Assembly (NCBI GenBank): GCA_000165345.1
Contig: CM000432.1
Location: forward strand, 800,001 to 864,000
DNA length: 64,000 nt
Reading direction: 5' to 3'
Every line of letters starts with the position of its first letter. Within the stretch, counting starts at the first letter, position 1. Under the pieces are notes generated by a model. That model had not been told where the DNA came from. It ran no database searches and saw only the letters and a program-made list of their open reading frames with translations. A program made the position numbers and the translations under genes. Of the stretch, positions 51,624 through 56,775 are shown piece after piece.

Positions 51624-52346
51624 ATGGTTTCATTAAGATTGTTATTCATTATAGCTCTAACAGCTTTAATTCAAAATGTCAGATCATCAAATATCATTTT
51701 GAATGAGAACTACACGAAGATTTCTGAAAAAGAGTCTATCATTGAAAGTTTGGAGATTATTAAAAGAGAGTACGATCAGGGCAAGAATTTGACTGATTTA
51801 ATCAAAGATCTTGAACATTCTGAAGAAAATAGGGAGCTTTTCGAGAATATGGATACTAATACAACTGAAATTATTTCAGATTCCTGGGATAAAATTGAAG
51901 CTGCTATGAAAAATACTACTGTCGTGACTCCAGTTGCTCCTTTTAACAGCTCCTCAATTGGAAGTTGTGTGAAACTTGCTTCAGATGTGAATATTGTCTT
52001 TGGTTCTCACAGAGATGAATTCCAAAATGCTGTTGCAAAATGCTCCAGGAAAGCTCTTGGGAGCTATAAGAATACATTTAGGTGTATTTCAAAGCTTAGT
52101 TTTGATGGTTTAAAATTATCAGCTCAATGTAATGATTGCTGGGCAAAAACTGCTCATTGTGGAGTTAAGCACTGTGCCTCCCAGTGCTTGTTTAACACAT
52201 GTGTTGCTAAGTGTCAGAAATGTTCAATTAGAGAATGTTCCAAACAGCTTAACGAATGTGCAGGGACTACATGGATGCCTTTACCTTGCGCTCTAGATCC
52301 TCACAAACCAATCCCTGATCATTTTAAAGCAAATGACCCCAAGTAA
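51624..52346 (+). CDS. Small secreted protein (240 aa). Its C-terminal 10-Cys domain (~51963-52343) is homologous to the C-terminal domain of the downstream multi-Kazal protein.
   Basis: Signal peptide MVSLRLLFIIALTALIQNVRS. The C-terminus CNDCWAKTAHCGVKHCASQCLFNTCVAKCQKCSIRECSKQLNECAGTTWMPLPCALDP aligns with [58 protein letters not shown] of the next gene. Confidence 0.85.
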   Translation: MVSLRLLFIIALTALIQNVRSSNIILNENYTKISEKESIIESLEIIKREYDQGKNLTDLIKDLEHSEENRELFENMDTNTTEIISDSWDKIEAAMKNTTVVTPVAPFNSSSIGSCVKLASDVNIVFGSHRDEFQNAVAKCSRKALGSYKNTFRCISKLSFDGLKLSAQCNDCWAKTAHCGVKHCASQCLFNTCVAKCQKCSIRECSKQLNECAGTTWMPLPCALDPHKPIPDHFKANDPK

Positions 52347-52872
52347 ACTTTCATTTGACAACATAAAGGCAATTACAAGGGGGATAATAATCGTGTAATA
52401 TTCTTCCTCTCAATCTTCTTATTATGCTCCTTTCTTTTTTCAGGATGAGAAGATAATATCTACCCTAATTTCTATGTTTGTTAAATACATATCTCGATCA
52501 TTCTCATTTAAGGAAAGAGAAACAATTGTCTATAGATAGAGTATTTTTCTTTTAGATCGTTTTAATTAGGATTTTTACAATTATTTAGAGTCTTTACAAA
52601 ATCTTTATCTAGTTTTTAATGTGATTTTGTCATAAAAATTGATGACTAATATTTTTTCCCTAAGTTAAACAATGACTTGTTTTTCACTCTAAATTAATCA
52701 GTTTTATCCCAAGTTAATTATATAGATTTATTATTATCAAGTGAGTAAATAAAAAGGAAGAAGTGTGAAAAAAAAATCTTTACAATTATCAATAAAGTCA
52801 TCCCCTACATATGTTAATTCTCTCCATTACTCTTTTCTTCACTCGTTTAAAATTATAAATTATACTCGGCAT

Positions 52873-52897
52873 AAGCGCCACAATTTGCGCGCCTTTA
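52873..52897. promoter_or_regulatory. E2F-like AAGCGCCAC / TTTGCGCGCCTTT
   Basis: ~200 nt upstream of the multi-Kazal gene ATG. Confidence 0.45.
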
Positions 52898-53085
52898 CCG
52901 GTACTGATTAATATATAACATAAATATAGGCAATTAATTAAATAAATTAGAGGCAAGGCAAAAAAAAATCTTAAATTAAATAATACAATTAAAAAATGAC
53001 CGGGTTAGAGGATAAACGTAAAAGTATAACTTAAACAATTCGGTCGTTAATCAGTAAAGTAATTCTTTTACATAATTATTAAAAT

Positions 53086-56000
53086 ATGGAGAGAATTGTT
53101 TTTTCTAACTTAATTTTTGCCATTTTGGCTGGGTATCTCATTAGTTTGTCAGCATGTGCTGAGAAATTCAAGTATAATTATACTTTAGGCAATATTACTG
53201 TTAACAGTACAAGTCCAGTATATATTTTCCCAGCTAGTTCTTCAAAAAGAACTACTACTACTACTGCAGAATTAACAGGAGTTGGTGATAGTATTCCTCC
53301 ATTAGGTCCATTTGATAGAACTAGAGGTCCAGGTTGTAAAACTCCATTTGTTACTTTTGATTTAAAGCTAATTTGTGGTTCTGATGGAAACACATATGAT
53401 AATGTTTCTATTTTCAGAAATGCTCAGTGCGATGATGAAAATCTTGAATTCAAACATTGGGGAAGATGCAAAGGAACTCTAAGTTCACTTAAGGGCCGTG
53501 AACAACTCATCTCCAAACGTCCATATTTGCCACAAGGTATTGTCCCATCTCCAATTTCCACTACCACTACTACCACCACTGCCACTACTACTACTACTAC
53601 CACTACTACCACTACTACCACTGCAGTGCCAATAGTTGACTTCCAGGAAGGTTCTCCATTAGGTCCATTTGATAGAGTTAGAGGTCCAGATTGCAAAACT
53701 CCATTCGTTACAGCAGATTATAGACCAATATGTGGCTCTGATGGAAAAACTTACTCGAATGTCGCACTTTTCAGAAACGCTCAATGCGATGATGAGAATT
53801 TGGAATTCGTCCACTGGGGAGAATGTCCCACACAAGTTAAGCCAGAAGAATCAACAGAAAGACCTCCATTGGGTCCATTTGACAGAGTCAGAGGTCCAAA
53901 TTGTAAAACTCCATTTGTCACTTTGGATCTTGACCCAATTTGTGGTTCTGATGGAAAAACCTATGACAATACTTCAGTATTTAGAAATGCTCAGTGTGAT
54001 GATAAGAATTTGAACTTTGCTCACTGGGGAGAATGTCTCACACAAATTAAGCCAGAAGAACCAATAGAAAGGCCTCCATTAGGTCCATTCGATAGAATTA
54101 GAGGTCCAGACTGTGTCACTCCTTATGTAACTTATGAATTAAACTTGATTTGTGGCTCAGATGGAAAGACTTATTCAAATATCTCGGGCTTCAGAAATGC
54201 TCAATGTGAAGATGAAAATCTTGAATTCAAACATTGGGGAGAATGTACTTTAGAAGAATCTCAAGCTAATAAAAAGAAGAGAGAAGATTTGGGAAGCTTG
54301 GATAGACCAAGAGGTCCAAAATGTAAACAAGATTGTCCAAAGTTCTATGATCCAATCTGTTCAAGTACTGGTACTGTTTATGCAAATGAATGCTACTTCA
54401 GAAATGCTCAGTGTGATGATGAAAAGCTTGGATTCCTCCATTGGGGAGTTTGTAATAGTAATGATGCTGACAAGATTAATGGAATCATCTTTATCGCAGA
54501 ATCTGGTCCTTTTGAATTGGAACCATTGGGTCCATTTGATAGAGTTAGAGGTCCAGACTGTAAGACAGTCTTTGTTGATTTCAAATACTATCCAATTTGT
54601 GGTACTAACGGAAAGACTTACGAAAATGTTTCCCATTTCAGAAATGCTCAATGCGATGATGAAAATCTTGAATTCAGATACTGGGGAGTCTGTTTTGAAG
54701 GTTATGAGGAATACTTTGGGAATTTGATTCCATTAGGTCCTTTTGACAGAGTTAGAGGCCCAGGTTGTAAGACACCTTGTACTAGGGAGTATAACCCAGT
54801 CTGTGGATCAAATAGAGTGACATATTCAAATCCGTGCGAATTCAGAAACGCACAATGTGATAATGTGAATCTTCAATTCCTCCATTGGGGAGAATGCAGC
54901 AAGAGTATATGTAACAAGCCAGCTCAACCATCTCAGGCTCCAGTTGGAATTGAGAAACGTACCTTTGATGCAGATCAAGCACGTGAACCTTTGGGTCCTT
55001 TTGACAGAGTTAGAGGTCCAGGATGCAGAACTCCATGCACTAGAGAGTTTGACCCAGTATGTGGGACAGACGGTACTACTTATCCAAATCCATGTGAATT
55101 CAGAAATGCTCAGTGCGATAACTCAAATCTCGAATTTGCTTATTTCGGAGAATGTAGTGGTGAGCCTGAACAACATAAGGATTTAAGTCCAGTTGGTGAG
55201 ATAAACTCTGAGTTTTATAGATATAACTATGTTCTCTATAGAATCAGAGGGCCTGATTGTAAGAAGCCATGCAGTAGTTTAGATTCACCAGTTTACGGTA
55301 GTGATGGAAAGGAGTACAAAAATATTTGCTATTTATTAAATGCAATGTGTGATGATTCTACCTTGGAGCATTACATGGCCAGAGTTTACGATAGTGAAGA
55401 AGATCAGAAGAATCCTCCAAAAGTAATTAAGGCAGATTTAGGTCCATTTGATAGGAAAAGAGGTCCAAATTGTAAACAAGAATGTTCTAAATATTACAAT
55501 CCAGTTTGCTCAAGTACTGGTACCATTTATGCAAATGATTGCTACTTCAGAAATGCTCAATGCGATGATGAGAAACTTAAATTCCTCCACTGGGGAGTTT
55601 GTGACAGTAATGATGCTGATAAAATCACGGCAATCATATTTACCAAGGATTCTGGTCCATTTGAGACACTTCCATTGGGTCCATTTGACAGAGTCAGAGG
55701 TCCAGACTGTGTCACTCCATTTGTGACAATGGATTATAGACCAATATGTGGTTCTGATGGAAAAACTTACACAAATATCTCCCACTTTAGAAATTCTCAA
55801 TGTGAAGATCCAAACCTCGAATTTGTTCATTGGGGTAAATGTCTCACCACTGAAGAAAATGTTGAATCTCCCAATGTTGATGTTGGTGGTAGAGGTCTCC
55901 CAGGTCCTTTAGATCGTGAAAGAGGTCCAAATTGCAAAACTCCATGTACAAGAGAATACCGTCCAATTTGTGGAAACGATGGGGTGACTTATGGCAATCC

Positions 56001-56775
56001 ATGTACATTTAAGAATGCTCAATGCGATGATGAGGGACTGACTGCCTTACATTTTGGAAAGTGTAATGATGATGATGTTCATTTAATTACAACCACAACA
56101 ACAAAAATTCCAGGAACAGCTTGTTCAACAAAACCAACAACAAGTGAAATGGCCAGGGGAAACTTAAGAAGCACAAAAGGAACAGATGAAGAAGAAGATG
56201 ATGGTTCTTTACCAACAAGTACTACTACTAAGACCATATCAGAAAGCTATCCAAAATCAGATGAAAAGGATGAAAAAGAAGAGCACTTTATGAGCTTAAT
56301 GGAAGTTCTTTCCAAAACCTCATTTAGTACTCCAGAACCAACAATAACAAGAGAAAGTACTGGTAACTGTTTAAATCCAACAGATTTGGAAATTTTGTTT
56401 GGTGAAACTAGCGTATTTTTCCAGAATTTGGTGATCGTTTGTGGAAGATCATCCCTTGGAAATGGAGGTAAGACAGCCAAGTGTATACAAAACAGATCTT
56501 TTGGTCCAAAAGAACTCAGGATCTCAGACCAATGTGTTTCGTGCTACAAGGAATCAGCAACTTGTGGTAGTAAGAAATGTAAATCTGCCTGTCTCACTTC
56601 TACTTGTAATACAAAATGCCAGAAATGCTTTGAGAAGAATTGTGCTAGCAATCTTAAAGAGTGTGTCGGTACCAGTTGGTTACCAAAACCATGCGGACTT
56701 GATCCATTTTCTGAAACTCCAGAAGGATGGAAAGTTCCAGATCCAAAACAAAGTGATGTTGCTCCACCCAAATAA
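53086..56775 (+). CDS. Secreted multi-Kazal protein (1229 aa). It has ~12 tandem Kazal-type serine-protease-inhibitor-like domains, poly-Thr mucin-like spacers and a C-terminal 10-Cys domain (~56365-56772).
   Basis: Signal peptide [25 protein letters not shown]. The repeated unit is [16 protein letters not shown]...[11 protein letters not shown]...[18 protein letters not shown]. Units with 6 Cys ([26 protein letters not shown]) alternate with 4-Cys variants. The poly-Thr is encoded at ~53560-53622. Confidence 0.85.
53560..53622 (+). repeat. (ACT/ACC)n trinucleotide tract encoding poly-Thr
   Basis: TTTTTTTATTTTTTTTTTTTT in the protein. Confidence 0.9.
54300..56060 (+). repeat. Higher-order duplication within the Kazal gene. 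Block ~54300-54900 (domains 5-7) is ~85% identical in DNA to block ~55440-56060 (domains 10-12).
   Basis: The two blocks share matching nucleotide stretches (tgtaaacaagattgtcc... vs tgtaaacaagaatgttc...). The domains show pairwise protein similarity: 5~10, 6~11, 7~12. Confidence 0.75.

What the first reader, a model, noticed from the sequence alone, without database searches (positions are those of the whole stretch)
51963..56772. Novel 10-Cys C-terminal domain shared by a small secreted protein and the adjacent multi-Kazal protein
The last ~125 aa of the 240-aa gene and of the 1229-aa Kazal gene align with all ten Cys conserved. The shared pattern is FG...C...G..K...CI...QC..C...A.CG.K.C.S.CL..TC..KCQKC....C...L.EC.GT.W.P.PC.LDP....DPK. 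The genes are adjacent on the same strand. This implies either domain shuffling or tandem duplication followed by insertion of a Kazal array. I cannot place the domain in any family I know, so it may be an undescribed extracellular module.
Basis: seen in the sequence. Interest (0 to 1): 0.75.

Follow-up and report, generated by a model that had tools for sequence, protein, structure and literature searches.

The report
Unclassified cysteine-rich domain, duplicated Cryptosporidium genes
Two neighbouring secreted-protein genes of the gut parasite Cryptosporidium end in the same 14-cysteine helical domain, which belongs to a widespread family (malaria parasites, other alveolates, some bacteria) that matches no Pfam or NCBIfam model and no solved structure, and which in intestinal species carries a 12-unit protease-inhibitor array.

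Summary
The C-terminal ~135 aa of the 240-aa gene (51624-52346) and of the 1229-aa Kazal gene (53086-56775) are homologous: BLASTP E=9e-35, still 3e-20 with every Cys masked. There are 14 invariant Cys, not 10. The window is Cryptosporidium chromosome 4 (cgd4_3540-type gene and its Kazal neighbour).

The pair is an old tandem duplication. C. andersoni has the same two genes in the same synteny, but its second gene (380 aa) has no Kazal units. The array was therefore most likely inserted in the intestinal lineage. It is still changing: another assembly carries 13 units.

The domain is not private to these genes. A profile search finds 412 cluster representatives: Plasmodium, Hepatocystis, Eimeria, Cystoisospora, Hammondia/Neospora, Vitrella, Alphamonas, Perkinsus, marine protists and at least two bacterial contigs.

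Cys co-variation supports three disulfides; the other four are inferred.

Function is untested. I propose a protease-resistant extracellular anchoring or binding module.

The parts
51624..52346 (+). Gene A: 240-aa secreted protein (orthologue of C. hominis CHM_4g3540, i.e. cgd4_3540-type)
   Evidence: ORF. It is 98% identical to CHM_4g3540, with orthologues in 10 Cryptosporidium lineages. The exact sequence is present in NCBI assemblies.
51624..51689 (+). Gene A predicted signal peptide (residues 1-22, MVSLRLLFIIALTALIQNVRSS)
   Evidence: Read from the sequence. This is an inference; no signal-peptide predictor was available.
51939..52343 (+). Gene A C-terminal domain (residues 106-240; 14 Cys between 51966 and 52289)
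   Evidence: Alignments A1 and A2. AF2 model with pLDDT 93.6 and five helices. 74% conserved against C. felis, versus 27% for the N-terminal half.
53086..56775 (+). Gene B: 1229-aa secreted multi-Kazal, mucin-like protein ending in the same domain
   Evidence: ORF. Pfam Kazal_2 2.4e-81 and Kazal_1 7.4e-77, 12 stretches each. Identical gene in GCA_031892065.1.
53086..53157 (+). Gene B predicted signal peptide (residues 1-24)
   Evidence: Read from the sequence. Inference.
53317..56064 (+). Array of 12 Kazal units (residues 78-993). Five are canonical 6-Cys units with Lys/Arg at P1. Six are 4-Cys units lacking Cys2/Cys4 with F, A, L, Y, F, M at the P1-equivalent position. One is a 4-Cys unit lacking Cys3/Cys6.
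   Evidence: Unit 7 'CTREY' aligns with ovomucoid third domain 'CTLEY'.
53558..53622 (+). Poly-threonine (mucin-like) stretch between Kazal units 1 and 2
   Evidence: Tandem Repeats Finder periods 6 and 9; translation.
53654..54246 (+). 210-bp (70-aa, one Kazal unit) tandem repeat, 2.8 copies, 77-80% identical. This is the site of the unit-number difference between assemblies.
   Evidence: The 1299-aa allele with one extra unit after residue 243 is.
56065..56337 (+). Thr-rich and acidic linker. Its last ~35 residues are also similar to the pre-domain segment of gene A.
56338..56748 (+). Gene B C-terminal domain (residues 1085-1221; 14 Cys between 56368 and 56694)
   Evidence: 72% identical to the C. 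felis orthologue.

Best explanation
Genes A and B are tandem paralogues that arose in the Cryptosporidium ancestor, before gastric and intestinal species split. Both are secreted and have no transmembrane or GPI-type tail. Both end in one copy of a ~110-135-aa disulfide-stapled five-helix domain. This domain belongs to a large, uncharacterised extracellular family. The family has a core of 12 Cys, and an apicomplexan/chromerid/colpodellid subfamily has 14. It occurs across Apicomplexa, chromerids, colpodellids, Perkinsus and marine protists, and in some bacterial surface proteins, often in tandem copies on mucin-like linkers. In the intestinal Cryptosporidium lineage, gene B acquired a Kazal array between the signal peptide and the domain. 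The array then expanded by unit duplication and is still polymorphic. Proposed mechanism (inferred, not shown): the C-terminal domain is a very stable, protease-resistant binding or anchoring module. It holds otherwise soluble proteins at the parasite surface, wall or host interface. In B it displays about 11 reactive loops, five with Lys/Arg at P1 (trypsin-directed) and six with hydrophobic residues at P1 (chymotrypsin/elastase-directed), as a shield against pancreatic serine proteases. Shown here: the homology, the duplication history, the family's extent, the absence from Pfam, NCBIfam and PDB, and three disulfide pairs from co-variation. Inferred: the remaining disulfides, the anchoring role and the protease targets.
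Against: No experimental or expression data for either gene were found. The anchoring or binding role rests only on architecture and analogy, and no ligand is known. The bootstrap for the B clade is only 69% on a 120-column NJ tree. The direction of the Kazal change (gain versus loss) rests on parsimony, with one gastric species examined. Model coordinates could not be read, so four of the seven disulfides are assigned by helix register and elimination only. AFDB fold libraries were unavailable, and InterPro, CDD and PANTHER could not be queried, so 'undescribed' is proven only against Pfam-A (2025 copy), NCBIfam, PDB and the searchable literature.
Confidence: 0.6

Rival explanations
1. The similarity is a chance or compositional resemblance between two cysteine-rich tails.
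For: Both regions are Cys-rich (14 of ~110 residues), which can inflate alignment scores.
Against: E=9e-35. E=3.4e-20 with all Cys masked. Cys-fixed shuffles give 22.9 +/- 5.1 bits against 112 native. Both copies are conserved across species.
Confidence: 0.01
2. Domain shuffling: an existing Kazal gene independently captured a copy of the domain from gene A (or the reverse), rather than a whole-gene tandem duplication followed by Kazal insertion.
For: Strong similarity is confined to the domain plus ~35 upstream residues. N-terminal similarity between A and the C. andersoni B gene is weak: 24% over 91 aa, E=0.004.
Against: The positional orthologue of B in C. andersoni is a 380-aa Kazal-less gene, with both flanking genes orthologous. 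The B domains of C. andersoni, C. felis and the window group together.
Confidence: 0.1
3. The Kazal array was already present in the ancestral B gene and was lost in the gastric lineage (C. andersoni / C. muris), where pepsin rather than trypsin is the main host protease.
For: With only two Cryptosporidium clades sampled, gain and loss differ by a single step. Loss would fit the gastric niche equally well (background knowledge: C. andersoni and C. muris are gastric species).
Against: Paralogue A and every non-Cryptosporidium family member examined lack Kazal units. The array shows young internal duplications (77-80% DNA identity) and a 12/13-unit polymorphism, which suggests ongoing growth.
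Confidence: 0.2
4. The domain is a metal-binding or redox (CxxC) module, for example vanabin-like or metallothionein-like, or a TNFR-type cysteine-rich domain as UniRef labels some members.
For: It has two CxxC motifs. There are weak Pfam Vanabin-2 hits for 4 of 81 members (best E 0.072) and one metallothionein hit (E 0.59). UniRef labels two members 'TNFR-Cys domain-containing'.
Confidence: 0.05

Closest known systems
Kazal-type serine protease inhibitors of coccidia (e.g. Toxoplasma TgPI-1, four Kazal domains)
   Same: Gene B is a bona fide multi-Kazal protein. It mixes basic and hydrophobic P1 residues, like TgPI-1's trypsin-specific and chymotrypsin/elastase-specific domains. TgPI-1 acts at the parasite surface and cyst wall against gut proteases (PMC12147184).
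   Different: Gene B has 12-13 units rather than 4. Seven of the 12 units have only four Cys. It has a poly-Thr stalk and a C-terminal 14-Cys helical domain that no other Kazal protein examined carries.
Vanabin-2 (Pfam PF11437; ascidian vanadium-binding protein, helices cross-linked by nine disulfides, from background knowledge)
   Same: Both are small, all-helical proteins whose helices are stapled by many disulfides. It is the only Pfam model hit by more than two members, and only weakly (4 of 81, best E 0.072).
Helical cysteine-rich receptor domains (GDNF-receptor/GFRAL type)
   Same: Both are extracellular, helical, disulfide-rich modules of about 100 aa. GFRAL appears in the Foldseek list.
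   Different: Foldseek E=2.9, probability 0.02, TM 0.16, which is not significant. There is no Pfam hit.
Uncharacterised apicomplexan orthologues ('conserved Plasmodium protein, unknown function': PGSY75_1321900, and by locus-tag convention PF3D7_1321900 / PVX_116775; HHA_255330; Cystoisospora, Eimeria, Neospora genes)
   Same: They carry the same domain, single-copy and at the extreme C-terminus of a secreted protein of 290-430 aa, including the extra Cys pair.
   Different: Their N-terminal regions are unrelated, they have no Kazal units, and they are not duplicated in tandem as far as seen. PVX_116775 was merely included in a P. vivax merozoite protein library with no function assigned (PMC4689532). 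The mapping of gene IDs is by naming convention and was not tested by sequence.

Membership tests
Kazal serine protease inhibitor (Pfam PF00050 / PF07648), gene B only | Significant match to the Kazal HMMs | tested here: met
   Kazal_2 E=2.4e-81 and Kazal_1 E=7.4e-77, 12 stretches each. phmmer of unit 7 hits agrin, ovomucoid and others.
Kazal serine protease inhibitor, gene B only | Six Cys per unit forming the 1-5, 2-4, 3-6 disulfides | tested here: inconclusive
   Five units (5, 7, 8, 10, 12) have all six Cys. Six units lack Cys2 and Cys4, and unit 9 lacks Cys3 and Cys6. Atypical four-Cys Kazal units are known elsewhere (background knowledge), but inhibitory activity is untested here.
Kazal serine protease inhibitor, gene B only | Canonical reactive-site loop with P1 two residues after Cys2 | tested here: met
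   Unit 7 '[12 protein letters not shown]' aligns with ovomucoid 'ACTLEYRPLCGS'. That Leu is P1 of OMTKY3 (background knowledge), which gives P1 = R, R, R, K, K in the five canonical units.
TNFR cysteine-rich domain (label given by UniRef to the C. canis and Vitrella members) | Match to TNFR_c6-type models; non-helical, ladder-like CRD fold | tested here: not met
   No TNFR model at E<=1 in the window proteins or in any of 81 family members. The AF2 model is five helices.
Vanabin-2 (PF11437) | Score above the Pfam gathering threshold; sequence or fold match to the solved vanabin structure | tested here: not met
Any Pfam-A / NCBIfam family for the shared domain | Significant HMM match | tested here: not met
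   Pfam; NCBIfam. Precomputed Pfam is '-' for all database hits.
The unnamed family defined here (alveolate/bacterial 12-14-Cys helical domain) | Collinear core Cys pattern, C-x(~24)-C-x13-C-x14-C-x2-C-x6-C-x4-C-x3-C-x8-C-x2-C-x4-C-x6-C, with conserved F, G, T, LS, FG and TG positions | tested here: met
   Both window copies have every core Cys plus the subfamily pair. Reciprocal profile hits run from E=1e-27 to 1e-10 to Alphamonas, Perkinsus, Vitrella, Cystoisospora and Plasmodium.
The unnamed family defined here | Extracellular location (signal peptide or lipobox; mucin-like linkers; paired Cys) | tested here: inconclusive
   N-terminal hydrophobic leaders were read by eye in A, B, P0011-P0018 and P0054. 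P0106 has a lipobox-like LTAC. Cys are lost and gained in pairs. No signal-peptide predictor or experiment was available.

The most novel reading that the evidence does not exclude
The shared C-terminus is the founding example of an undescribed, ancient extracellular domain superfamily with a new seven-disulfide five-helix fold. It is present from bacteria to malaria parasites and serves as a protease-proof surface-anchoring or ligand-binding module. Its fusion to an expanding Kazal array only in intestinal (not gastric) Cryptosporidium is a niche adaptation to pancreatic serine proteases.
Probability: 0.3. Interest if true: 0.7.

Novelty: new variant of a known kind. Interest (0 to 1): 0.55.

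Why it matters
It assigns structure and evolutionary context to 'hypothetical' secreted proteins conserved in Cryptosporidium, Plasmodium, Toxoplasma relatives, Eimeria and free-living alveolates. It provides a ready-made seed alignment for a new domain family. It also points to a testable host-niche adaptation: an anchored, multivalent trypsin/chymotrypsin inhibitor in intestinal Cryptosporidium that the gastric species' orthologue lacks. Surface-exposed, highly stable, conserved domains of this type are candidate antigens and candidate handles for finding parasite-host or parasite-wall interactions.

Tried and rejected
The word-indexed homology search with B's C-terminus found nothing, so the exhaustive profile search was needed. 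AF2 with the shallow Cryptosporidium-only alignment gave pLDDT 55.9 and was discarded. The afdb50 and afdb_sample fold libraries were unavailable. The BFVD viral fold search gave no match. Literature searches for cgd4_3540 and cgd4_3550 gave only passing mentions ('mucin', 'putative secreted', antisense lncRNA). Supplement searches were empty, and the C. parvum hyperLOPIT paper is not held. A guessed P. berghei gene ID (PBANKA_1418100) was not validated and is not used. A vanabin/apicomplexan literature search was uninformative, as was a search for a published gastric-versus-intestinal Kazal comparison. One search was a mistaken call. TNFR, Vanabin and GFR-alpha-like membership were considered and rejected (see the membership tests).
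Full report
WHAT IS THERE. The window is AT-rich (about 30% GC) and comes from Cryptosporidium. The 240-aa ORF at 51624-52346 (+), called gene A here, is 98% identical to C. hominis CHM_4g3540 and has orthologues in C. meleagridis, C. canis, C. ubiquitum, C. ryanae, C. felis and others. The exact protein lies on 1.1-Mb chromosomes of two NCBI assemblies. The next gene on the same strand, 53086-56775 (gene B, 1229 aa), has a signal-peptide-like leader, a poly-Thr stretch and 12 Kazal matches (Kazal_2 E=2.4e-81). 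Pfam finds nothing on gene A or on the last 141 aa of gene B.

CHECK OF THE OBSERVATION. BLASTP aligns A residues 78-240 with B residues 1045-1221 at 38% identity, E=9e-35. Domain against domain gives 44% identity and 112 bits. Masking every Cys still leaves E=3.4e-20. Keeping B's Cys in place and shuffling all other residues gives 22.9 +/- 5.1 bits (maximum 39.7 in 200 trials). This is therefore homology, not a shared cysteine scaffold. Fourteen Cys are invariant across both paralogues and eleven sequences, not ten. No further copy exists in the window.

HISTORY OF THE GENE PAIR. In C. andersoni the gene order is 1663 aa (-), 250 aa (+), 380 aa (+), 451 aa (+). The outer genes are orthologues of the window's 1578-aa and 531-aa genes (40% identity with E=0, and E=4e-13). 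The 250-aa and 380-aa genes both end in the domain. The 380-aa gene is the positional orthologue of B, yet it has no Pfam domain, no hit to an HMM built from the window's own Kazal units, and there is no Kazal-like coding sequence anywhere in the 21-kb locus.

A neighbour-joining tree of the domain places all A copies together (bootstrap 90%). It groups the C. andersoni 380-aa copy with the Kazal-bearing copies of C. felis and the window (69%). The two clades are sisters within Cryptosporidium (74%), with haemosporidian and coccidian homologues outside. The roughly 35 residues before the domain are also shared between A and B. Together with the synteny, this indicates a whole-gene tandem duplication before the split between gastric and intestinal species.

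Paralogue A and every non-Cryptosporidium member lack Kazal units, so a single gain of the array in the intestinal lineage is the most parsimonious reading. Loss in the gastric lineage cannot be excluded. The array is still dynamic. Units 2-4 form a 210-bp tandem repeat at 77-80% DNA identity. Assembly GCA_048859185.1 encodes a 1299-aa protein that differs from the window's only by one extra 70-aa unit.

THE DOMAIN IS A LARGE FAMILY WITHOUT A MATCHING MODEL. An exhaustive HMMER search with the Cryptosporidium profile found 412 cluster representatives at E<=1e-3 and 45 at E<=1e-10. Named members come from the following sources:
- C. muris and C. andersoni
- C. felis (the Kazal protein)
- Alphamonas edax
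- Perkinsus olseni (3-4 copies separated by poly-Thr linkers)
- Vitrella brassicaformis
- Cystoisospora suis
- Eimeria stiedai
- Hammondia and Neospora
- Hepatocystis
- Plasmodium coatneyi, P. yoelii, P. berghei and P. gaboni
- MMETSP and EukProt transcriptomes

A second search returned mostly marine eukaryote catalogue entries, none with any precomputed Pfam domain.

At least two members are bacterial. One is a Candidatus Binatia MAG protein with four copies. The other is a 984-aa protein with a lipobox-like leader and about nine tandem copies, on a contig whose neighbours encode NadA, CobW, GGDEF and Leu/Phe-tRNA-protein transferase.

In apicomplexans the domain is single and at the extreme C-terminus. 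No Pfam-A model matches any of 24 full-length members or 81 isolated domains. The only recurrent, sub-threshold hit is Vanabin-2 (4 of 81, best E 0.072). NCBIfam has nothing on the domain. Profiles A1 and A2 find no PDB sequence even at E<=10.

The only literature trace found is that the presumed P. vivax orthologue (PVX_116775, linked to PF3D7_1321900 in that paper and to the P. gaboni hit only by locus-tag convention) was included in a merozoite protein library as 'unknown function'. The neighbour cgd4_3550 is listed as a fast-evolving 'mucin' and 'putative secreted protein'. I infer that cgd4_3550 is gene B from the neighbouring gene number; this was not verified by sequence.

DISULFIDES. 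Three pairs are supported:
- C140 and C154 are replaced together in at least eight 10-Cys sequences that keep all other core Cys.
- C179 (changed to Tyr) and C205 are lost together in a distinct subgroup.
- C193 and C222 are present together in 39 copies and absent together in 127. This defines the 14-Cys subfamily of apicomplexans, chromerids and colpodellids.

The two long helices carry Cys whose positions sum to a constant: 172+212, 179+205 and 184+200 all equal 384, and 188+197 equals 385. This is as expected for an antiparallel hairpin stapled by a ladder of four disulfides, and one rung of that ladder (179-205) is among the co-variation pairs. C115-C169 remains by elimination. Those four assignments are inference.

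LIKELY FUNCTION. Several observations indicate an extracellular, very stable structural or binding module:
- signal peptides or a lipobox
- mucin-like linkers
- tandem arrays
- paired Cys
- much stronger conservation of the domain than of the rest of gene A (74% versus 27% against C. felis; 56% versus 25% against C. muris)

Neither A nor B has a hydrophobic C-terminal tail, so any retention at the parasite surface would have to go through a domain like this.

In gene B, five canonical Kazal units have Lys or Arg at P1. Unit 7 'CTREY' aligns with ovomucoid 'CTLEY', whose Leu is P1. Six 4-Cys units have F, A, L, Y, F, M at the equivalent position. This is a trypsin plus chymotrypsin/elastase repertoire like that reported for Toxoplasma TgPI-1, which sits on the parasite surface and cyst wall and protects against those enzymes (PMC12147184).

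I therefore propose that the domain anchors or targets its protein, and that B is an anchored multivalent shield against pancreatic proteases. The Kazal-less orthologue in the gastric species C. andersoni fits that idea, but it is a single observation. Whether gastric species have Kazal genes elsewhere was not testable here.

COMPARISON AND NOVELTY. Gene B is a member of the Kazal family. The shared domain is not a member of TNFR-Cys (a label that UniRef attaches to two members), Vanabin-2 or GFR-alpha-type domains, all of which were tested and not met. It is best described as a new, unclassified family of the general kind 'disulfide-stapled helical extracellular module'. The genes themselves are already annotated as hypothetical proteins. 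The new points are:
- the family definition
- its breadth
- the confident model with no structural neighbour in the PDB
- the partial disulfide map
- the duplication-plus-Kazal-insertion history

Interest is moderate (0.55). This is a solid candidate for a new domain family with relevance to several major parasites, but it has no functional data yet.

Noticed in passing
window 53654-54246; L006 7463-11362: Kazal unit-number polymorphism. Assembly GCA_048859185.1 encodes a 1299-aa version of gene B with one extra 70-aa Kazal unit after residue 243 and no other difference. GCA_031892065.1 matches the window (1229 aa). This is either a real copy-number variant or repeat collapse in one assembly.
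   Followed up: partly
window 53317-56064: Seven of the 12 Kazal units are non-canonical four-Cys units. Units 1-4, 6 and 11 lack Cys2 and Cys4 and have hydrophobic P1-equivalent residues. Unit 9 (from residue 719) lacks Cys3 and Cys6. Units 5-6 and 10-11, with their 'NDADKI..IIF..SGPFE' spacers, look like a larger segmental duplication.
   Followed up: partly
database entries P0003, P0004, P0018 (orthologues and homologues of gene A): There are annotation slips. A 240-aa orthologue of gene A is named 'secreted with signal peptide and 12 KAZAL repeats and a mucin-like stretch of threonines', which is the neighbour's description. UniRef calls the C. canis and Vitrella members 'TNFR-Cys domain-containing', which neither Pfam nor the helical model supports.
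   Followed up: yes
L004 8001-10955 (P0106) and P0036: Bacterial proteins carry 4 to ~9 tandem copies of the same domain. One has a lipobox-like leader on a contig with NadA, CobW and GGDEF genes. The other is in a Candidatus Binatia MAG together with a myxo_disulf_rpt/DUF4215 repeat. The direction of any transfer between bacteria and alveolates is unknown.
   Followed up: partly
window 45840-50576 (-): The upstream neighbour is a 1578-aa protein with a signal-peptide-like leader, Ser/Thr-rich tracts and no Pfam domain. It is conserved at 40% identity with a 1663-aa C. andersoni protein. This is another uncharacterised, probably secreted, Cryptosporidium-specific protein.
   Followed up: partly
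window 53424-53696 (-), 53669-54013 (+), 54347-54727 (+), 55448-55830 (both strands), 56441-56816 (both strands): Several 80-126-aa ORFs overlap gene B in other frames or on the opposite strand. They look like by-products of the repetitive Kazal coding sequence rather than genes. A published lncRNA study does report antisense transcription correlated with cgd4_3550 (PMC7840661).
   Followed up: no
window 4001-6000 and 12001-16000: There are composition outliers. GC is 0.43 at 4001-6000 (inside ORF 3536-6256) against about 0.30 elsewhere. GC and AT skew are strongly positive (up to +0.41 and +0.24) inside the 2128-aa ORF 11153-17539.
   Followed up: no
window 35980-43608 and 57901-63887: None of seven other large ORFs near the locus has any Pfam hit at E<=1e-3. 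The region is dense in lineage-specific genes.
   Followed up: no
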